From IMG/VR virus record IMGVR_UViG_3300042934_000124, positions 1 through 37,423 of that record: 37,423 nt of DNA. One strand, 5' to 3'. The stretch's first letter is position 1. Every line of letters starts with the position of its first letter. Below, piece after piece: positions 48 to 37,423 of the stretch. Both the position numbers and the translations under genes were made by a program. Source of the DNA: a virus. Taxonomy: Duplodnaviria > Caudoviricetes. The notes under the pieces were generated by a model. The model saw only the letters and a program-made list of their open reading frames with translations, did no database searches and was not told the origin of the DNA.

Positions 48-146
48 TAAAGCTGATGATGGGATTCGAACCCACGACTTGCTCATTACGAATGAGCTAA
101 GTGTAAACAGCGAAACGCCAAGCTATTGGTACGCATGGACAGTGCT
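48..146. repeat. Direct repeat, left copy (att region)
   Basis: taaagctgatgatggg...ggacagtgct is identical to 37325-37423. Confidence 0.97.
52..97 (-). tRNA. 3' half only of tRNA-Thr(CGT) (att core; not a complete tRNA)
   Basis: Minus strand GCTCA-TTCGTAA-TGAGC anticodon arm, GTGGG-TTCGAAT-CCCAT T arm and 3' acceptor strand; no D arm or 5' acceptor strand. Confidence 0.88.
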
Positions 147-698: not shown

Positions 699-714
699 TC
701 AAAATTCTATTTTA
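699..714 (-). repeat. TAAAA-N6-TTTG site upstream of moron
   Basis: + strand tCAAA-attcta-TTTTA, between lysin terminator and moron promoter. Confidence 0.55.
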
Positions 715-19701: not shown

Positions 19702-19727
19702 TTTTTCATAAACACCTCCTACATGCT

Positions 19728-20057
19728 TGTAACCAACTCTAAAAAAGATGGTTACACTTGAATGTCTTGACTATCAATGGATACAAGCGTTTTGTAACCA
19801 ACTTTGCTTGTAACCACGTTTTCTGCAACGTATATAAATAAATAATAAATATATATATAAAAAGTATATTTTTTTCTTATAGAGTTCAAAACTTGGTTAC
19901 ATAGTTACAAATATATATACTACTATACTTAAAGTATTGATATATATAGGTTTATATAGTGTAACTATAGTGTAACCAAGTTGTAACCAAGTGTAACCAC
20001 AGAAAATTCTTAATTGTATTAACAATTTAATTTCGCCTTTGACTATCAATGTATACA
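19728..20057. repeat. Probable replication origin: TGTAAC(C/T) iterons around an AT-rich core
   Basis: About 10 copies in both orientations (19728, 19750, 19793, 19809, 19895, 19903, 19960, 19971, 19982, 19992); downstream of VirE-like helicase. Confidence 0.8.
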
Positions 20058-20111: not shown

Positions 20112-21560
20112 TCAATTATGACTCTTGTCAAGTAAATGCTTATTTTCATCTATTTCAAGCTGCTTATCCCTGTACCAATATTTCTGTACTCCATACCCGG
20201 TTATTCTTATAGGTCCACTGCTTTTACGCCATCCTTTGAAGCCTTGCATTATAGATGCTATTTCTATACTGTCCTTCTTACTAGGCTTCTGAGGTTCATT
20301 AAGAGCCTTTTGCCATAATTCCATGACACATATTATGTCTCTCTTTTCATCCATTAAGTACTCTTCAATCATTCCTATGCGATAATCGTCCTCCACCGCA
20401 TCAGCTTGATGGCTCCTTATGATGTCTAGTAGTTTCTCATCAGCAAATGGTTGCATCTTACCTTTGTCGTATAAATGCTTTGCTTCGGCCCATGCTTGCA
20501 ATATGTCTGCCTGTATAGCGTCTATGTTGTTGTATAACTCATACCCCGTATTGTTGCATACTACCGGATAATAACGCCTATTCCCTGTTTTGTCGGTGAG
20601 GAACTCTGTTTTATTGGTGGTCCCAAGGAATACACATTGTCTTTTGTGGTCCGTTACCCGTGTATCAAACGGTTTTCTATAGGTGTCTACTCTGCACGTT
20701 ATATAGGCCTTTACCGCTTCTACTTCTTTTGTCTTAGTAAGTGCAAGCAGTTCCCCCATTTCGCATATCCACGCTCCTTCTAGTGCTTCTATGCCCTTTT
20801 GTCCTTCTATCTCCTTAACCTCTCTGAAATAATCTTCTTTGAGTGCCAGCCAGCTTACAAAACTACTCTTTCCACTGCCTTGATTTCCCATTAGAACAGG
20901 CATATCATCAAATTTGCAACCTGGATTGTATAGTCGGTGTATCCCTCCTGCAAATATTAGGCGACTTACCTCATGGACGTATACATCATCTGCTGCCTTA
21001 AGCCATTTAGTAAGCATGTGCTTAACCCTTGGCTTGCCATCCCACTTAGTAGCTTCTATAATTTCCTTAACAGGGTTATAGGTGTTCTCAAAAAAGATAA
21101 TCCTAAGCGCATCATCAAGCTTCTTCTCGTTGTGGATCCTATAGGTTTTCTCTATGTACCTTCTTAGCTCGCTGTCATCTACATTAGTCCACTTAATCTT
21201 TTCACCATCAACTATGTGCTCAGGATATCCGGTAAGCTCATTAAGTACAAATGTGTTGCCATAGTTGAGATCATTTCTGAGTATCTGCAAGAAATTATCT
21301 ATACTAGCTACTGGATTACCTTTGTCATTTAGAGCTAGAGTGAATCCACATTTAAAAGGGTTTATCTTTGTGTTGTCTTTCTTATAGGCCGTAAGTCTGC
21401 GCTTAAATGCCTTTAGTACGCCTATCTTTTCAGCGTGTTTCAATAATGCTTCTTCTAGTTCTACCCTCTCAACCTCGCTGGTCTTATCAAAGAGTGCTAT
21501 GAATGTAGGTTCTAGCAGTATAGATATTTCGTCTAATTCTTGTACTTCACTCGCATACAA
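20112..21560 (-). CDS. VirE/VapE-family P-loop ATPase (replicative helicase-like)
   Basis: WDGKPR, PGCKFD, GNQGSGKS, GTTN, DKTGNRRY. Confidence 0.93.
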   Translation of the reverse strand: MYASEVQELDEISILLEPTFIALFDKTSEVERVELEEALLKHAEKIGVLKAFKRRLTAYKKDNTKINPFKCGFTLALNDKGNPVASIDNFLQILRNDLNYGNTFVLNELTGYPEHIVDGEKIKWTNVDDSELRRYIEKTYRIHNEKKLDDALRIIFFENTYNPVKEIIEATKWDGKPRVKHMLTKWLKAADDVYVHEVSRLIFAGGIHRLYNPGCKFDDMPVLMGNQGSGKSSFVSWLALKEDYFREVKEIEGQKGIEALEGAWICEMGELLALTKTKEVEAVKAYITCRVDTYRKPFDTRVTDHKRQCVFLGTTNKTEFLTDKTGNRRYYPVVCNNTGYELYNNIDAIQADILQAWAEAKHLYDKGKMQPFADEKLLDIIRSHQADAVEDDYRIGMIEEYLMDEKRDIICVMELWQKALNEPQKPSKKDSIEIASIMQGFKGWRKSSGPIRITGYGVQKYWYRDKQLEIDENKHLLDKSHN

Positions 21561-22248: not shown

Positions 22249-22284
22249 GATTTCACCTCCTTCTCAAACTTCGTTTTTATTAGG

Positions 22285-23148
22285 TTATCTATAATCTGAC
22301 CATTTTACGCTTTTAAAAATAGCTTTGTGATTTACCCATCTAGTAAACCTGTTTTGATATACATCTTTTTTATTGAAAGGCATTACAAGTGGGTCAACTT
22401 TCAGCTCTCTTAATTTCTCAATTCTATATAAATCTTCTTCCGGAGTGCTCCAATATCCGATTAGCACATAGCACATAATCTTATATGCTTTAACGTGTTT
22501 AACCATGGCTTTTATGTTTTCTGTTATGTCCTGCTTTGGATTATCCCAAGCTATATGAATTTGTTTGAAGTGTTTTAGCTTATTGAGCGCATACGCCTGT
22601 TCTTCATTCATGATCCTAACGTCAACACCTTGCATATTAACTGGTTGCCCCCACTTTAATAGCTGTTCTATGGCTTTCTTCCATTCTGTATTGGCGAAGA
22701 AGTTATTGTCTAAGACTTCTATGTGCTTACCTTTAGGATTAAGATCTAGCGGCTCCACAGGATGTATATAACCCTCTTTCTCTCTAACCACACAGAACGG
22801 GCAATTCCTTATGCACCCTCGGCTGAAAAACTGCATTGAATACTCATGTTGTGGGTATATGCTATAGTCTAACTTTCTTATCTTTTCTATTTCTTCCGGC
22901 AGCCTACTTTTGATATCAAATCCTGTGCCACCCTTTATGATCTCTGCACCCGGTGGATAATAAAGATAATCATCACTATAATTAAACAACTTGCTTGCAT
23001 ATACCTTGTCTATTTTAATGCCAATATCAGATATAGGGTTAATCCAATCCACATTATCATTTTTTGATTTATGATATGTTGCAGCTTTCATAAGTGGGAT
23101 GATCGGCATCTTAGCGTCTATATCTAACAATCTGATTTCCAACCGCAC
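22285..23148 (-). CDS. Radical SAM-family protein
   Basis: SRGCIRNCPFC (CxxxCxxC), LDNNF. Confidence 0.85.
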   Translation of the reverse strand: MRLEIRLLDIDAKMPIIPLMKAATYHKSKNDNVDWINPISDIGIKIDKVYASKLFNYSDDYLYYPPGAEIIKGGTGFDIKSRLPEEIEKIRKLDYSIYPQHEYSMQFFSRGCIRNCPFCVVREKEGYIHPVEPLDLNPKGKHIEVLDNNFFANTEWKKAIEQLLKWGQPVNMQGVDVRIMNEEQAYALNKLKHFKQIHIAWDNPKQDITENIKAMVKHVKAYKIMCYVLIGYWSTPEEDLYRIEKLRELKVDPLVMPFNKKDVYQNRFTRWVNHKAIFKSVKWSDYR

Positions 23149-23174
23149 CGCCTCACTTCCAAATTTCGATTTTA

Positions 23175-23360
23175 TTACTCTTCTTCTACTCTTACAAATA
23201 TCCTGCCGGATGATTTCCCGTTAAGTCTCCCTGTCTTAGCCTTACTGATTTGAGAGTACAGATACTTAACGCTTATATTTGCCCATGCAGCTACTTCTTG
23301 CACTGTACCTACACACAATGGCAATTCATACTTATCTGCTGTCACAGCCATGTATAACAC
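23175..23360 (-). CDS. Small phage protein (possibly DNA-binding)
   Basis: MAVTADKYELP motif; 61 aa. Confidence 0.7.
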   Translation of the reverse strand: MLYMAVTADKYELPLCVGTVQEVAAWANISVKYLYSQISKAKTGRLNGKSSGRIFVRVEEE

Positions 23361-23385
23361 TATCTCACCTCTACAAATCTGACTT

Positions 23386-23694
23386 TTACAATGCTATTCC
23401 TTCTTCTTGCTCGAATCTTTCAATGAATGGTGCTATTATCTGTATACCTTTCTTTGATGCGTACTCATACTCAAGCTTTGATCCAGCGCTATTCTGCCAT
23501 CCATTCAAGAAGCAAACTGCATCTACCTGATCTATCATTGCGTAACATATCGGCATATAATCTTTTAATCCATCCGGCAAAAACGCCGGATTTATTACGA
23601 TATGCCCTTTCTCTTGAAGTTCCTTTTCTTTTGCGTTAAATGCTTCTCTATAATTTAAAATGCCTGTTATCGGCCCAGCTACATAAATTTTCAT
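23386..23694 (-). CDS. DUF4406 / nucleoside 2-deoxyribosyltransferase-like protein
   Basis: KIYVAGPITG, INPA, GWQNSAGSKLE. Confidence 0.85.
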   Translation of the reverse strand: MKIYVAGPITGILNYREAFNAKEKELQEKGHIVINPAFLPDGLKDYMPICYAMIDQVDAVCFLNGWQNSAGSKLEYEYASKKGIQIIAPFIERFEQEEGIAL

Positions 23695-24023
23695 ATAACC
23701 TTACCTCCATGTTTGTACGGCCTTGTCTTGTTGAACTCATGTTTTTCTTTTAGTGCTGCCACTATGTCAATTTTATACTCTCTACACATATCTAAGATGC
23801 GGATAATTACGTCAGCCAGCTCAGTAGGTATGCCCTCCGGCTTACCATCTTCTCGGTAATAAGTCTCTGTCATTCCTCTGTTGTCTCTGTGTTCCTCAAG
23901 AGCTTCTGATAACTCGCTATGGCATAAGGCTATCAATTCACCGAAAGTCCTGTCTTCGTCCCACCACCCATGATTTACGGCATTTTCGTGTACTTCTTCT
24001 TCAAACTTTTTGATATCTAACAT
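23691..24023 (-). CDS. MazG-like nucleotide pyrophosphohydrolase
   Basis: LCHSELSEALE, ELADVIIRILD, RPYKHG. Confidence 0.87.
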   Translation of the reverse strand: MLDIKKFEEEVHENAVNHGWWDEDRTFGELIALCHSELSEALEEHRDNRGMTETYYREDGKPEGIPTELADVIIRILDMCREYKIDIVAALKEKHEFNKTRPYKHGGKVI

Positions 24024-24048
24024 CCAATCATCCTTTCAATATCGAATT

Positions 24049-24306
24049 TTATTTGATAATCCATAAGTAACAATTTGGAAATCCTATTTCATAGCCACCA
24101 TTATTTTTTTGAAAATATAAAAATGGTAGCCTTATAAGCCAATGAAAATACCGCCATTCTTTGTGTGGATACAAGCTGAATTTCAAGTTTGAGAATCCAC
24201 GGCCTTTAAAATAAAATTTAATCTTGCTACCTTTATTATATTTGACTATAACTAACTTTTTGGTAATCTGATAAGCATTGTGTCTCTTGTGTCTAAATAC
24301 TTTCAT
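24049..24306 (-). CDS. Hypothetical basic/aromatic protein
   Basis: 85 aa, AAAGGAG RBS; stop codon is part of the junction site. Confidence 0.7.
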   Translation of the reverse strand: MKVFRHKRHNAYQITKKLVIVKYNKGSKIKFYFKGRGFSNLKFSLYPHKEWRYFHWLIRLPFLYFQKNNGGYEIGFPNCYLWIIK

Positions 24307-24333
24307 CCACTCACTCCTTTACAAATTCGGATT

Positions 24334-24630
24334 TTATAAACATTTCTGATGTTCGTACAGCTCTTGAAAACTTATACCGTATTCATTCTCTATGAAGCAA
24401 CTAAAATCGTCACTGTCGCAGTATCCTTTTTGGTCGTCATAGCCCTTTTTGAACATCTCTTCAACTAAATCCTTGCACCTGTCACACTCATACCATGCGT
24501 GCAGGTTATCTTCTGTCTTATTTTTGTTGTATGTGTATTCTTCTCCTTTTTCAATTGTGCTGTTACACCAACTACAAGAATGCTCTGTTTTTGCTTTTAC
24601 ACGCTTCCTTTCAATCGTCTCAAAACTCAT
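24334..24630 (-). CDS. Hypothetical Zn-finger-like protein
   Basis: KAKTEHSCSWC..IEKGEEY, CDRC. Confidence 0.75.
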   Translation of the reverse strand: MSFETIERKRVKAKTEHSCSWCNSTIEKGEEYTYNKNKTEDNLHAWYECDRCKDLVEEMFKKGYDDQKGYCDSDDFSCFIENEYGISFQELYEHQKCL

Positions 24631-24658
24631 GCTATCACCCTTTCAAAAGTCAATTTTA

Positions 24659-25114
24659 TTACTTCATGAATACTAACCAATGCGTTTTGCTTCTTTTGTT
24701 ACCGAACAGTGGTTCGTATTGTATTTCTTTAAGCACTTCTTTTAGGCTCACTTGATCTTCATTCCATTTAAAAATCAATGTTCCATGGTCATCTAAAACC
24801 CTCATACACTCACTGAATCCTTTTTTAATATCCATCCTCCAGGTGTCTGACAGCTTTCCATATTTCTTGGCCAACCATGAGGATTCTCCTGCTTTTATCA
24901 AATGAGGAGGGTCGAAAACCACTAACTTAAAGCTTTTATCCGGATAAGGTATATTCCTAAAGTCAGCGATGATATCTGGGTTTATTTCTAACTTTCTTCC
25001 GTCGCACAATGTATCTTCAAGTTGCCTGTTATCCATATAGACAACTTTTTCGTTTTTCTTATTAAACCAAAACATTCTGCTACCACAACATGCATCTAAT
25101 ATTAGTTTTTCCAA
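24659..25114 (-). CDS. Class I SAM-dependent methyltransferase (amino-MTase-like)
   Basis: ILDACCGSRMFWF motif I, VFDPPH catalytic-type motif. Confidence 0.88.
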   Translation of the reverse strand: MEKLILDACCGSRMFWFNKKNEKVVYMDNRQLEDTLCDGRKLEINPDIIADFRNIPYPDKSFKLVVFDPPHLIKAGESSWLAKKYGKLSDTWRMDIKKGFSECMRVLDDHGTLIFKWNEDQVSLKEVLKEIQYEPLFGNKRSKTHWLVFMK

Positions 25115-25142
25115 CGCATCACCCCCTTTTCAAAAACTAATT

Positions 25143-25292
25143 TTATAAGTTATAATCATCTTCTTCATCAATGATATCCTCATCAGGTTCAAAACTCTTA
25201 CAAACCCCATTAACAATTTTTAAACTATACTGCCTAGTACATCGATCATTAATACAAAAAGCACAATCATATGTGTTACAAATAATATTCAT
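25143..25292 (-). CDS. 49-aa Cys-rich protein (not in ORF track)
   Basis: MNIICNTYDCAFCINDRCTRQYSLKIVNGVCKSFEPDEDIIDEEDDYNL*; GGGGTG RBS; bounded by two junction sites. Confidence 0.75.
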   Translation of the reverse strand: MNIICNTYDCAFCINDRCTRQYSLKIVNGVCKSFEPDEDIIDEEDDYNL

Positions 25293-25313
25293 ATTCTCAC
25301 CCCAATCAAAAAA

Positions 25314-25835
25314 TTATTTTAATTGCTTTAATTCCTCTTCCATGGCGTACTCTAGCCACTCCAACCTCCATATACATTGCCCCCATGTATCACTCATAGG
25401 CTCTAGTTTCTTAACTGCTAGATTGTTAACCCTGTACAATGCGCATAATCTTTCGTATCGTTCATTTGCTTGCCTAGCTGCTTTCACTTCTAGCGCTCTC
25501 TGCTCATTAGCTTTTCTAACTGCTACCTGGGCCGCTACGCTTATATTCCCATCCATCAAGCCAAGTTCAAACTCATTGTCAATAAATCGAATAGCATCTG
25601 TAAAATCTAATCCTTGGTGTCTTGATGCGAATGAAAATATATCTCCTCCGGCTCCGCATCCTTGGCAATAATATACGCCTTTGCTTTCTGTAACTATGAA
25701 ACTAGGTGTTTTTTCTGTATGGAAAGGGCAAAGTATCTTCCCTTTTGAAAACCTTTGCCCTGTTAACCTTTCTATTAGCTGTGTGAGTGATACTTGCTGC
25801 CTGATCTGTTCTTTGACTATCTCAAGTCTATTCAT
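25314..25835 (-). CDS. CHC2 zinc-finger protein (DnaG Zn-binding domain only)
   Basis: LCPFHTEKTPSF..YYCQGCGAGGD; likely ATG at 25835. Confidence 0.9.
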   Translation of the reverse strand: MNRLEIVKEQIRQQVSLTQLIERLTGQRFSKGKILCPFHTEKTPSFIVTESKGVYYCQGCGAGGDIFSFASRHQGLDFTDAIRFIDNEFELGLMDGNISVAAQVAVRKANEQRALEVKAARQANERYERLCALYRVNNLAVKKLEPMSDTWGQCIWRLEWLEYAMEEELKQLK

Positions 25836-26175
25836 CGTCCCCATCTTCTTCAAATATGCTCTTTTGTGCTGCTTTTACCGATACCTCAACATATTCTCCA
25901 TCTCGCTCAACTATTGCATTTAGCGATGTCATGTTGCCTTTTTGCTTGCTCTCTCGCTTGCATGAAGAGTTTACCTTGTATGATAGGCTAGGCGCCTTTA
26001 GCGTATTGTCGTTTTCATTAGGTATAAGACTGAGGTCAAAACTTACTAAGATATGTCCTTTCTCAAAACCACCCTTGTATAAATCCTCAATCACTTCCTG
26101 TATTGCTGTATCAGCTGATTCAACCATTTCTTCAAACAGCGGACTATTTAATCCAATTTGCATTTCATTCTCCAT
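25828..26175 (-). CDS. Hypothetical protein
   Basis: 115 aa, GGAGG RBS. Confidence 0.7.
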   Translation of the reverse strand: MENEMQIGLNSPLFEEMVESADTAIQEVIEDLYKGGFEKGHILVSFDLSLIPNENDNTLKAPSLSYKVNSSCKRESKQKGNMTSLNAIVERDGEYVEVSVKAAQKSIFEEDGDDE

Positions 26176-28556: not shown

Positions 28557-28976
28557 TTAAAATGGCATATCATCTTCTTCATCATCTACACTGAATGCTT
28601 GTGCTGGTGCAGTATTTGTTGGTGCTGATTGTTGCGGAGCATTACTTTCGGATGTAGCTCTGCTTTCTGCAAAATGTTGTTCTTCTGCCACAACATCTAC
28701 AGAGGTATGTTTTACTTTTTGTTGGTCTTCCCAATTGTTTACTTGAAGTCTGCCAACTATAGAGACCATCTGGCCTTTTCTAAAGTATTTCTCCGCAAAT
28801 TCTCCGGCTTTTCCAAATGCTACTATGTTAAAGAAGTCAACGTCTTGCTCTCCTTGTTTATGAAATTGTCTCCTAACTGCTAATCCATATCTTGCTACTG
28901 CTACCGGATTAGCTGATTGGGAATATCTTACCTCAGGGTCTCTTGTTAATCTTCCCATTAAGATTGCTTTATTCAT
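28557..28976 (-). CDS. ssb: Single-stranded DNA-binding protein
   Basis: MNKAILMGRLTRDPE...acidic tail DDMPF; start reassigned to 28976. Confidence 0.96.
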   Translation of the reverse strand: MNKAILMGRLTRDPEVRYSQSANPVAVARYGLAVRRQFHKQGEQDVDFFNIVAFGKAGEFAEKYFRKGQMVSIVGRLQVNNWEDQQKVKHTSVDVVAEEQHFAESRATSESNAPQQSAPTNTAPAQAFSVDDEEDDMPF

Positions 28977-29622
28977 TATTATCTCCCTTCTTAGCTGCTG
29001 CTTGCTCGTATGCAGCACACACATCATCGTATTGCTTCTTTGTCATTGCGCTTACTTCTACGTTGTAAGCTTTAAGCACTTGCGCTTTTACTTTATCTGC
29101 TGATTTCCCAGCAGTGTTAGCTATGGCGTAAAGCCTTGATAATTGTGCCGGAGTTAGTCCGCTTGTGGCTGGCTTACCTTGTTGTTGACTCGCACCTGAT
29201 TGCGGCTTATTGCTACCTTTTTTATCATTGTTGCTTGCTGCGTTGCCATCGTCATCCTCGTCACTCGCTAGACCTAATGCTGCTGCTAGAGAATATCTTC
29301 TAGCATATGTTATGGCACTTCCAGCGCCTTGTGCTGTTTGCTTATCTGCTTTAAGTGTTAATGGGCCTATCTCTACCCACTCACCGCTGCTATGCATTAA
29401 TAGCGTTGTTACGCTTATATTGAGACCATCACCATCACACGATTGGATGTAGCTAAGTCCATTCTCTTTGAGTATTGGTTTGGCTGTATCAACTAATGTA
29501 TCCAGCGGTGTATATTTGCTCTTGAAGAATGGGTTATCTGCACTCTTTGGTGGGTTAGTTACTTTTCCTTGGAATGCGCTTAGCGCTGCGGCTAAATTCT
29601 TGATACTTTCTGATTTTTGCAT
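28969..29622 (-). CDS. erf: ERF-family single-strand annealing protein
   Basis: NPFFKSKY, GSAITYARRYSL..DDDGN. Confidence 0.92.
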   Translation of the reverse strand: MQKSESIKNLAAALSAFQGKVTNPPKSADNPFFKSKYTPLDTLVDTAKPILKENGLSYIQSCDGDGLNISVTTLLMHSSGEWVEIGPLTLKADKQTAQGAGSAITYARRYSLAAALGLASDEDDDGNAASNNDKKGSNKPQSGASQQQGKPATSGLTPAQLSRLYAIANTAGKSADKVKAQVLKAYNVEVSAMTKKQYDDVCAAYEQAAAKKGDNNE

Positions 29623-35702: not shown

Positions 35703-36164
35703 GTGATTGTATTGACATATGACGAACTATTAAAGAAATATTGCAATGATGTGAGAATTACAGAGAAGAGTTTGCCGTTTGGATTAAAAGGCGCATACAG
35801 CAATGACATTATATTTATCGAAAAAAGAATGAGTAGCATAGAAAAAAAGTGTGTCCTGGCCGAAGAGTTAGGGCATCACTTTACTAGCAGTGGCATTATA
35901 TTAGATCAGCGGAATATTATAAATGTTAAGCAAGAGAAAAACGCTCACATTTGGGCCGTTAAGGAACTTATAACATATGAGAAATATTTAATGGCTGTCA
36001 TGCTTAATCATTGCGATTTTTGCAGAGCAGAGTATTTAGACATAACTGAATGGTTTTTACGTGATGCGTACTATGTATACTCACTAAAAATAAATCACTA
36101 CTACTATGAAACATCCGGAGAACTGTGTTACATGAAAGGAGTTGACGACTTATGGCGAGCATAA
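35703..36164 (+). CDS. ImmA/IrrE-family metallopeptidase (antirepressor)
   Basis: VLAEELGHH and KQE..A motifs. Confidence 0.88.
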   Translation: MIVLTYDELLKKYCNDVRITEKSLPFGLKGAYSNDIIFIEKRMSSIEKKCVLAEELGHHFTSSGIILDQRNIINVKQEKNAHIWAVKELITYEKYLMAVMLNHCDFCRAEYLDITEWFLRDAYYVYSLKINHYYYETSGELCYMKGVDDLWRA

Positions 36165-37255
36165 GCAAGCGCAAAGATGGGAAGTGGCTAGGCCAAGTAA
36201 ATAGCGGCGGCAAAAGAAAGAGCTTTTACGGCAACACTAAAAAAGAGGTTGAATCAAAAATAAGCGAATACCTTAATGACATCAACACCTATGGGGCCGA
36301 GATGTCTAAGGTTAATATCAGTATTGAAAAATTGATGCATACGCATCTGTTTGTTAATGTTAAACCTAGAGTAAGCCTTGGTACGTTTGAGCGTTATATG
36401 AGCCTATATAATACGCATATCAAGGACTCTACTTTTGGAGGTTATGACGCCAAAGTAACAATACACAACGATGTGCAGAAGTTTATTAATTCTAAGTCCG
36501 ATCTCAGTAATCAATCAATATCCATGATAAAGTACTTGTTGCATCAATCATTTAATCATGCGATAGCAAACAATATTATAAGGGTTAACCCTGTAGCCGC
36601 TATTAGCCCACCGAGATCAACATATAAAGAAAAGGCTATAGATGTTCTTACTATTGACGAGCAAGCTAAATTCATGTCAGTTCTTAGCAAAACCCACTAC
36701 GAATTATTATTTGTACTTGAACTAAATACCGGAATGAGGGTAGGTGAAATAACCGCTTTAAGATGGGAAAACGTTGATTTGGACAATCAGACAATCAAGG
36801 TGAGAGAAACAAAGAGACTGGTCAAAAAATATGATAACGATGGAAACTCTCAAGATATAATGCATACCAAAGAACCTAAATCTAAGTCAGGGAGTAGAGA
36901 TATCCCAATCCATAAAAATATAAATAAAAAATTGAAAGAGCTTAAAATAAATAATGGTGCCAGTAAAGACGATTTTGTATTTCTAAACACCAATAAAGAA
37001 CAAATAAAGTACGATAGCATATCCAAGGCACAAAAGATGCTATGCAAAAAAGCCAAGATTAGAGAAGTCACATTTCATTGTCTTAGACATACGTTTGCTA
37101 CAAGACTAATAGAAAATGGCGAGGACATAAAAACAGTGTCCCAGCTGTTGGGACACTCAAAGGCTGATATAACTATTAATCGCTATGTACACAGTACGGC
37201 AAATACAAAAATACAAGCGATTGATAAGTTATACACTTCATATAATGCATTATAA
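36152..37255 (+). CDS. int: Tyrosine integrase
   Basis: N-terminal arm-binding domain; TGMR.GE, PKS, FHCLRH, LGH, RYVH. Confidence 0.97.
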   Translation: MASISKRKDGKWLGQVNSGGKRKSFYGNTKKEVESKISEYLNDINTYGAEMSKVNISIEKLMHTHLFVNVKPRVSLGTFERYMSLYNTHIKDSTFGGYDAKVTIHNDVQKFINSKSDLSNQSISMIKYLLHQSFNHAIANNIIRVNPVAAISPPRSTYKEKAIDVLTIDEQAKFMSVLSKTHYELLFVLELNTGMRVGEITALRWENVDLDNQTIKVRETKRLVKKYDNDGNSQDIMHTKEPKSKSGSRDIPIHKNINKKLKELKINNGASKDDFVFLNTNKEQIKYDSISKAQKMLCKKAKIREVTFHCLRHTFATRLIENGEDIKTVSQLLGHSKADITINRYVHSTANTKIQAIDKLYTSYNAL

Positions 37256-37324: not shown

Positions 37325-37423
37325 TAAAGCTGATGATGGGATTCGAACCCACGACTTGCTCATTACGAATGAGCTAAGTGTAAACAGCGAAACGCCAAGC
37401 TATTGGTACGCATGGACAGTGCT
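37325..37423. repeat. Direct repeat, right copy (attP-like; tRNA-Thr 3' half at 37329-37374)
   Basis: Identical to 48-146 up to the window end. Confidence 0.97.

What the first reader, a model, noticed from the sequence alone, without database searches (positions are those of the whole stretch)
22265..25321. Integron-like gene cassette array delimited by TAAAA-N6-TTTG sites
Seen: eight 15-bp sites in the same orientation (+ strand): CAAA-cttcgt-TTTTA 22265, CAAA-tttcga-TTTTA 23160, CAAA-tctgac-TTTTA 23374, CAAT-atcgaa-TTTTA 24037, CAAA-ttcgga-TTTTA 24322, CAAA-agtcaa-TTTTA 24644, CAAA-aactaa-TTTTA 25131, CAAA-aaatta-TTTTA 25307. They mark every gene junction in the block except the overlapping MazG/DUF4406 pair. 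The site's TAA is the upstream stop codon in four cases and abuts it in two more, and an RBS and start codon follow within about 10-16 nt. Arms are conserved and near-inverted; the 6-nt spacer differs each time. A rough estimate assuming about 35% GC gives about one chance match per strand in the whole window. Known: inverted arms around a 6-8 bp spacer is the core-site layout of tyrosine recombinases, and Tn916/Tn1549 integrases accept non-matching 6-nt coupling sequences (their target polarity, T-tract-N6-A-tract, is the reverse of this). Inference: seven promoterless cassettes are inserted, excised or shuffled site-specifically in the early operon. There are no attC hairpins or intI, and the recombinase is unidentified (own Int, host enzyme or another element). 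Alternative: a repeated operator or translational signal.
Basis: partly seen in the sequence, partly recalled or inferred. Interest (0 to 1): 0.92.

Follow-up and report, generated by a model that had tools for sequence, protein, structure and literature searches.

The report
Address-coded gene-swap sites in temperate phages
Eight short DNA sites separate small genes in this soil phage, and an otherwise unrelated prophage carries the same eight six-letter centres in the same order around different genes, so the sites likely work as fixed addresses where a recombinase would let phages swap genes slot by slot.

Summary
The eight sites are real. They form an ordered series of addresses rather than an integron-like shuffling array.

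- A prophage in G024 shares only 3 of 68 proteins with this phage, yet has all eight 6-bp spacers in the same order with unrelated cargo.
- In 25 loci, mostly from the likely host family, spacer order agrees in 451 of 452 pair observations.
- 49 of 77 shared-DNA block ends lie at sites; none lie at 23 site-less junctions.
- The left arm follows the upstream gene and the right arm the downstream gene, which brackets crossovers in a ~12-bp AAA-N6-WTT core.

Best reading: in-register cassette exchange between phages by a tyrosine recombinase that needs matching spacers, as for Acinetobacter pdif modules. Nine of 21 arrays lie next to a catalytically intact recombinase related to SPbeta YomM. This phage lacks it and would need it in trans. 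No reaction was shown.

The scan noted a sister motif (TAAAA-N6-TTTTA) earlier in SPbeta-like phages. I found no paper describing this system (10 searches).

The parts
25307..25321 (-). Site S1, TAAAA-taattt-TTTG; overlaps the 3' end of the primase zinc-finger gene
   Evidence: same spacer in L395 and L230
25143..25292 (-). Cassette 1 cargo, 49 aa, no family
25131..25145 (-). Site S2, TAAAA-ttagtt-TTTG
   Evidence: same spacer in L395 (left arm ACAAA), L230, L411
24659..25114 (-). Cassette 2 cargo, DNA methyltransferase-like (PHROG 954), 151 aa
24644..24658 (-). Site S3, TAAAA-ttgact-TTTG; address shared with both address series found
   Evidence: L395, L248, L355, L356, L357, L374, L401, L402, L406, L411
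24334..24630 (-). Cassette 3 cargo, 98 aa, PHROG 7314/19515 of unknown function
24322..24336 (-). Site S4, TAAAA-tccgaa-TTTG
24049..24306 (-). Cassette 4 cargo, 85 aa, no family
24037..24051 (-). Site S5, TAAAA-ttcgat-ATTG
23386..24023 (-). Cassette 5 cargo, two overlapping genes: MazG-like pyrophosphatase (23691-24023, PHROG 3301) and DUF4406 / nucleoside 2-deoxyribosyltransferase-like (23386-23694)
23374..23388 (-). Site S6, TAAAA-gtcaga-TTTG
   Evidence: also L397
23175..23360 (-). Cassette 6 cargo, 61 aa, no family
23160..23174 (-). Site S7, TAAAA-tcgaaa-TTTG
   Evidence: also L277, L397, L367
22285..23148 (-). Cassette 7 cargo, PHROG 9298 radical-SAM-like, 287 aa; 77% identical homologue in L411, where similarity stops after the left arm of S8
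22265..22279 (-). Site S8, TAAAA-acgaag-TTTG
25314..25853 (-). Primase zinc-finger gene, upstream flank; lies 13-69 bp from vapE in the six closest VapE relatives that show both genes
20112..21560 (-). VapE-like helicase gene, downstream core gene, separated from the primase gene by the array plus two further ORFs
28969..29622 (-). ERF single-strand annealing protein (enzyme of the main rival explanation)
36152..37255 (+). Phage integrase, the only PF00589 gene of the window; not of the candidate recombinase family
700..714 (-). Possible ninth site, TAAAA-tagaat-TTTG, just downstream of the lysin gene; unresolved

Best explanation
The eight sites are an ordered series of address-coded boundaries (dyad WMAAA-N6-WTTK, one fixed 6-bp spacer per position) between interchangeable genes, and they likely serve as crossover sites at which a tyrosine recombinase would exchange the DNA between matching addresses of two phage genomes. 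Shown by comparison: the addresses and their order are conserved between otherwise unrelated prophages, the cargo is replaced, and shared DNA begins and ends inside the site core. Inferred: one crossover at a matching spacer would join two phage genomes, and a second crossover at the next matching spacer would resolve them and swap one or more cassettes. Because the spacers differ within a genome, self-deletion is avoided and order is kept. Each cassette (right arm, RBS, gene, stop codon, left arm) is then expressed from the early operon. Rare out-of-register crossovers would move cassettes or duplicate addresses. Least certain step: the enzyme is predicted to be the YomM/LambdaBa02-like 320-aa recombinase found beside many such arrays, supplied in trans to phages such as this one that lack it.
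For: (1) The G024 prophage (L395) has all 8 window spacers in order; 6 have TAAAA left arms and 2 have ACAAA. No cargo is homologous, and blastn finds only 14-32 bp matches, at or next to sites. Only 3 of 68 window proteins hit that prophage region, at 27-44% identity. Chance for 6 of 7 strict matches is about 2e-9 before order is counted. (2) In 25 loci with 174 site calls, order is concordant in 451 of 452 observations; the shuffle mean is 302.5 and the maximum 339 of 5,000. (3) The slot after tcagag holds 18 different first-gene families in 18 arrays. (4) 49 of 77 distinct block ends lie within 25 bp of a site (13% expected); 42 of 156 sites but 0 of 23 site-less junctions carry an end. (5) At same-spacer block starts the left arm differs in 8 of 12 cases and the right arm in 1 of 12; at block ends the left arm differs in 0 of 10 and the right arm in 6 of 10 (Fisher P 0.002 and 0.02). 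The identity shared by partners is therefore about 12 bp, and arm alleles vary while the spacer stays. (6) Four co-resident prophages of G002 share 98-100% identical blocks bounded by addresses, e.g. 170 bp tccaaa to tcagag and 219 bp tataag to tctgat; one of them (L401) has no recombinase of the family, which fits action in trans. (7) All 9 close-clade recombinase loci with enough upstream DNA follow an array. R167, K190, H258, R261, H293 and H294 are invariant in 79 of 79 proteins and Y303 in 78 of 79. The family profile hits SPbeta YomM (E 3e-26) and BtCS33 ORF15 (E 1e-83), and both phages carry similar dyads at junctions.
Against: No reaction, binding or cassette intermediate was shown. 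The window encodes no such recombinase. Nine of 21 arrays lack one between the array and the next core genes, and 3 more are cut by contig ends. Adjacency may be co-inheritance, since arrays may be common in this family's prophages. Ten distant-clade loci (35-44% identity) show no array in the fetched stretch, and SEP9 encodes a family member but shows no array in 45-92 kb. 28 of 77 block ends lie away from any site. Four of 15 cargo pairs at 80% or more identity, and 13 of 14 pairs below 80%, sit at different addresses. The conserved arms (4-5 bp) are shorter than the 11-bp pdif arms (PMC6449649, passages). The pairs in (4) and (5) are not independent: about 9 start and 8 end events by my reading. 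Only one full match to the window's address set was found.
Confidence: 0.65

Rival explanations
1. Micro-homology recombination. The sites are conserved boundary signals, and phage single-strand annealing proteins (ERF here; RecT-like in relatives) or RecA cross over at the 12-30 bp shared by same-address sites. No site-specific enzyme is involved.
For: The window encodes ERF and no second recombinase. Matches to L395 reach 26-30 bp when the RBS is included. PeSL elements act as recombination hot spots through shared sequence (PMC2839356, section 16).
Against: The identity common to same-address pairs is confined to positions +2 to +14, with flanks at background. Outer arm alleles vary while spacers stay fixed. 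A dyad repeated at every junction gives no benefit to annealing and is unexplained under this model.
Confidence: 0.17
2. Operator or translation signal. A protein binds the dyad to regulate the operon (compare MrpR, a recombinase-fold repressor of SPbeta), and the breakpoints merely follow gene boundaries.
For: The dyad has fixed spacing and overlaps the stop codon and RBS region. Recombinase-fold repressors exist (PMC10516654, passages).
Against: No promoter enrichment (22 vs 17.6 +/- 4.8). No shared RNA hairpin: z from -2.1 to +1.1 over 8 sites. Position-specific spacers are kept between unrelated phages. Site-less junctions in the same arrays carry no block ends (0 of 23). The candidate family keeps all catalytic residues and its profile does not score MrpR.
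Confidence: 0.1
3. One reading: single cassettes are excised as circles and inserted or reordered without spacer homology (integron- or Tn916-like).
For: Cassettes do change address over longer times (L374/L405 at 87%, L355/L377 at 83%). Addresses are duplicated in L402 and L404. Tn1549 Int needs almost no crossover homology (PMC5871717, passages).
Against: Order is fixed in 451 of 452 observations. All 8 window spacers differ by 2 or more bases. Most near-identical cargo stays at its address (11 of 15). There is no attC hairpin or IntI. The Tn1549 target is TTTT-n6-AAAA, the opposite polarity.
Confidence: 0.08

Closest known systems
dif modules / pdif sites of Acinetobacter plasmids (XerC/XerD; PMC13141974 and PMC6449649, passages read)
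   Same: Modules lie between dyad sites with a variable 6-bp spacer. Recombination needs identical or near-identical spacers. Single modules replace one another through a proposed cointegrate with matched spacers on both sides.
   Different: Found in phages, not plasmids. Conserved arms are 4-5 bp and near-symmetric, not 11-bp XerC and XerD boxes. All sites face one way with no C/D alternation. One ordered address series is shared by unrelated replicons. Sites are fused to stop codon and RBS. The candidate enzyme is phage-borne, not host XerCD.
PeSL cassettes of T4-type phages (PMC2839356, abstract and section 16 read)
   Same: Repeated intergenic elements in accessory regions at which genes are gained, lost or replaced.
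   Different: PeSLs are about 100-bp promoter plus terminator units that recombine by shared sequence and yield mini-circles. Here the element is 15-16 bp, with no promoter or terminator and a position-specific spacer.
Integrons (attC/attI, IntI; features recalled, not from a call)
   Same: Promoterless single-gene cassettes in one orientation, separated by recombination-type sites.
   Different: No attC hairpin and no IntI. Order is conserved and cargo is replaced in place instead of being inserted at one attI.
Tn916/Tn1549 Int core sites (PMC5871717, passages read)
   Same: A/T tracts around a 6-bp crossover region.
   Different: Opposite polarity (target TTTT-n6-AAAA). That enzyme bypasses spacer homology, whereas here spacers are matched and conserved.
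Recombinase-mediated cassette exchange with heterospecific lox/FRT sites (engineered; recalled)
   Same: Different spacers prevent self-deletion and allow double-crossover swaps.
   Different: This would be a natural, multi-slot version shared across phages.

Membership tests
pdif / dif modules | 28-bp site with 11-bp XerC and XerD boxes | tested here: not met
   Conservation falls to background outside positions -2 to +14, apart from the RBS
pdif / dif modules | 6-bp variable spacer, matched between recombining sites | tested here: met
   22 of 27 block ends with a site in both partners share the spacer
pdif / dif modules | Alternating, inversely oriented C/D and D/C sites | tested here: not met
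   All sites in one orientation
pdif / dif modules | Host XerC/XerD act on the sites; likeness to host dif | tested here: inconclusive
   A recalled dif-like pattern gave control-level counts in 5 genomes; host dif not identified
Integron | IntI integrase next to attI | tested here: not met
   The only PF00589 gene scores 74 bits on TIGR02249, cut-off 265
Integron | attC sites folding as hairpins | tested here: not met
   15-bp sites; no shared fold in 51-nt windows folded as RNA; no attC model search was run
Integron | Cassette order variable between arrays | tested here: not met
   Address order concordant in 451 of 452 observations
PeSL | Sigma70 promoter plus stem-loop terminator in each element | tested here: not met
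   Promoter-like 22 vs 17.6 and terminator-like 1 vs 1.9 in shuffles
PeSL | Mini-circles from recombination between elements | not testable with these tools
   Only assembled contigs of one run were available
Tn916/Tn1549 sites | TTTT-n6-AAAA polarity and homology-independent exchange | tested here: not met
   Polarity is AAAA-n6-TTT and spacers are matched (PMC5871717)
Tyrosine recombinase (candidate enzyme, L248 family) | PF00589 domain with intact R-K-H-R-H-Y residues | tested here: met
Tyrosine recombinase (candidate enzyme, L248 family) | Binds and recombines the sites | not testable with these tools
   Needs an assay

The most novel reading that the evidence does not exclude
Temperate phages of Bacillota share a dedicated, enzyme-driven gene-exchange standard: an ordered set of 6-bp addresses read by the YomM/LambdaBa02-like tyrosine recombinase family. 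It would let unrelated phages, including ones that only borrow the enzyme from a co-resident prophage, swap accessory genes slot by slot. This would be a natural multiplexed cassette-exchange system and a direct mechanism for gene-boundary mosaicism.
Probability: 0.4. Interest if true: 0.95.

Novelty: new variant of a known kind. Interest (0 to 1): 0.83.

Why it matters
Phage mosaicism at precise gene boundaries is usually put down to illegitimate recombination plus selection, or to relaxed homologous recombination (my recalled background). Here the breakpoints map into a ~12-bp core, and the addresses are shared by phages with almost no proteins in common. That makes a site-specific route directly testable with a named enzyme family and natural substrates. 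It would also give a function to an orphan recombinase family that includes SPbeta YomM. A single recombinase that reads many orthogonal 6-bp spacers with very short arms would be useful for multiplexed cassette exchange.

Tried and rejected
- Primase zinc-finger search (57 loci) and generic motif scan (120 loci) found no close relative. The 126-aa ORF after S8 had only itself as a hit.
- Address scans of viral contigs: S7 gave 11 loci with no array; in 1 of 11 (L367) the site precedes a radical-SAM homologue as in the window. S6 and S4 gave 122 loci, and only the G024 prophage was recovered.
- Order-level search: no new recombinase hits in 401 genomes beyond the 11 family genomes already known.
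- Source-run contigs: no clean cassette deletion. One 8.5-kb contig matches only 24625-24662 (S3 plus RBS), and one joint 24660 to 25126 has a 21-bp side. Both are short and from the probable source run, so they were not used as support.
- AlphaFold model of the recombinase from a 2-sequence alignment had pLDDT 37 and was discarded.
- dif-like scan was at control level.
- The ArpU-adjacent 186-aa recombinase was found in 8 of 47 genomes and near 3 arrays (L376, L395, L403). It is absent from the window and was not favoured.
- SEP9 45-92 kb shows no array (the other half was not examined).
- The phi3T/phi3Ts 1,265-bp versus 725-bp replacement (bioRxiv 2020.05.06.055103, passages) is not bounded by the motif, so such replacements also arise by other routes.
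- Eleven site calls (shifted readings or probable in-gene matches) were dropped before the breakpoint test but were present in the order test. Addresses duplicated within an array were left out of that test.
- Duplicate records were counted once: L180/L248/L354/L360, L230/L358, L356/L394, L359/L393, L395/L443/L500.
Full report
Context. The window is a single 37.4-kb record with the gene set of a temperate siphophage: lysis, tail, head, terminase, ArpU-like regulator, replication genes, repressor and one integrase. A 99-bp direct repeat lies at its ends. The tRNA-like part of that repeat matches three genomes of the family that holds G001 at 98-100% over 51-60 bp (37 of 47 genomes have some match). 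G001's record is titled Cellulosilyticum sp., so that family is the likely host group (inference). The array lies on the minus strand between the primase zinc-finger gene and vapE. In the six closest VapE relatives that show both genes they are 13-69 bp apart, so the block is an insertion in this lineage.

Observation. All eight sites are present as described and far above chance. On the coding strand they read TAAAA-N6-(T/A)TTG, followed by an RBS and a start codon.

Related arrays. VapE searches (174 loci) gave two prophages, L248 and L230, with similar arrays after vapE, each followed by a second tyrosine recombinase of about 320 aa. Searching with that enzyme gave more prophages with arrays directly upstream of it. 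Searching by address gave 11 further stretches with sites, none with the enzyme in the fetched DNA; 5 other fetched stretches held no array. Searching likely host genomes with the window's array DNA gave a prophage in G024 (L395) whose matches fall at the sites. It carries all eight window spacers in the same order, two of them with left arm ACAAA. None of its cargo is homologous to the window's. Its replication and head genes differ, and only 3 of 68 window proteins hit the region.

The sites are addresses. Across 25 loci and 174 site calls the consensus is a dyad, (T/A)(A/C)AAA-N6-(T/A)TT(G/T). For 94 address pairs seen in at least two arrays, 451 of 452 observations agree in order, against a shuffle mean of 302.5. 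One series (gttgat, gtgttt, taactt, ttaatc, ttgact, taagaa, tccaaa, tcagag, tataag, tctgat) recurs in most loci. The window's series shares ttgact with it, and L411 joins ttagtt and ttgact to that series. Cargo is highly diverse: 167 ORFs fall into 141 families, and 18 arrays hold 18 different first-gene families after tcagag.

Breakpoints. Among 21 arrays with at least three sites, 49 of 77 distinct ends of shared DNA blocks lie within 25 bp of a site (13% expected), 0 lie at 23 site-less junctions and 28 lie elsewhere (junctions come from my simple ORF caller). Several near-identical blocks run address to address, notably among four co-resident prophages of G002. Where a block starts at a shared address the left arm often differs (8 of 12) and the right arm rarely does (1 of 12). 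Where it ends, the left arm never differs (0 of 10) and the right arm often does (6 of 10). Crossovers therefore fall within AAA-N6-WTT. For the window itself, the radical-SAM cassette is 77% identical to a gene in L411, and similarity stops right after the left arm of S8. These pairs are not all independent.

Against a strict model. Cargo pairs of at least 80% identity are at the same address in 11 cases and a different one in 4; older pairs are mostly at different addresses (13 of 14). L402 and L404 carry duplicated addresses. Out-of-register events therefore occur, but rarely enough to keep the order.

Mechanism. A dyad around a 6-bp centre whose identity matters more than the outer arm bases is what tyrosine-recombinase strand exchange predicts (established knowledge). 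The pdif system shows single-module replacement between plasmids through matched spacers (PMC13141974, passages). I infer two in-register crossovers between phage genomes in one cell. About 12 bp of shared identity is short for annealing proteins (recalled), but the window encodes ERF, so that rival stays at 0.17. Promoter and RNA-fold tests give no support to a regulatory reading.

Enzyme. The close clade of the 320-aa recombinase follows an array in 9 of 9 loci with enough upstream DNA, and keeps its catalytic residues in 78-79 of 79 proteins. Its profile hits BtCS33 ORF15 and SPbeta YomM over nearly their full length, but not ordinary integrases, the window's Int or MrpR. BtCS33 has six similar dyads between its replication genes and its ArpU-position regulator, and a 50-kb SPbeta segment has several at gene junctions (enrichment not tested). 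The L395 prophage appears to carry a distant member at its lysis end (L387). However, the window has none, the G008 contig holding L405 has only one PF00589 gene, 9 of 21 arrays lack an adjacent copy, and SEP9 has the gene without an array in the half examined. The assignment is a lead, about even odds given the site-specific model.

Literature. Ten searches (search listings) found no description of such ordered sites in phages; yomM occurred in none of the 15 papers listed. Papers read as passages: PMC5871717, PMC10516654, PMC6449649, PMC13141974 and bioRxiv 2020.05.06.055103. PMC2839356 was read as abstract and section 16. The library lacks most subscription papers.

Verdict. The feature is real. 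It works like pdif module exchange but is not a pdif, integron, PeSL or Tn916 system by the tests above. The scan noted a sister motif in SPbeta-like phages before. This report extends the pattern to small temperate phages of a different host group, maps crossovers to the core, and names a candidate enzyme family. Novelty: new variant of a known kind. Interest: 0.83.

Noticed in passing
window 48-146 and 37325-37423: 99-bp exact direct repeat containing a tRNA-like fragment (likely att region). G025 has two near-identical copies 18.5 kb apart, suggesting another element at the same site.
   Followed up: partly
window 700-714: Exact site in array orientation between the lysin gene region and a promoter-like stretch before two small ORFs; possible ninth address or chance.
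   Followed up: no
window 19720-19990: Several GGTTACA / TGTAACC repeats in an A+T-rich gap after vapE, typical of a replication origin.
   Followed up: no
L402 185-3572 and L404 7042-7893 (array-strand coordinates): Duplicated address runs, as expected from out-of-register crossovers.
   Followed up: partly
L377 7779-8500: Two adjacent cassettes carry 90% identical copies of one 71-aa gene at consecutive addresses.
   Followed up: no
L397 11052-11430 (G024:C17): Remnant with S6 and S7 addresses outside an obvious prophage; S7 there follows the same 10-bp upstream flank that precedes S8 in the window.
   Followed up: partly
L395, L410, L377, L381, L386: By my reading of the translations, several of these prophages encode TubZ/FtsZ-like or ParM-like proteins near the array or the recombinase, hinting at plasmid-like stages; not scanned against families.
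   Followed up: no
phage collection: The recombinase family occurs in 75-100 kb phages of Staphylococcus (SEP9, 6ec), Enterococcus (VPE25), Lactobacillus (Ldl1) and Geobacillus (GR1); its role there is unexplained.
   Followed up: partly
L417 34312-35906 (BtCS33): Six similar dyads between the replication genes and the regulator/short-integrase pair.
   Followed up: partly
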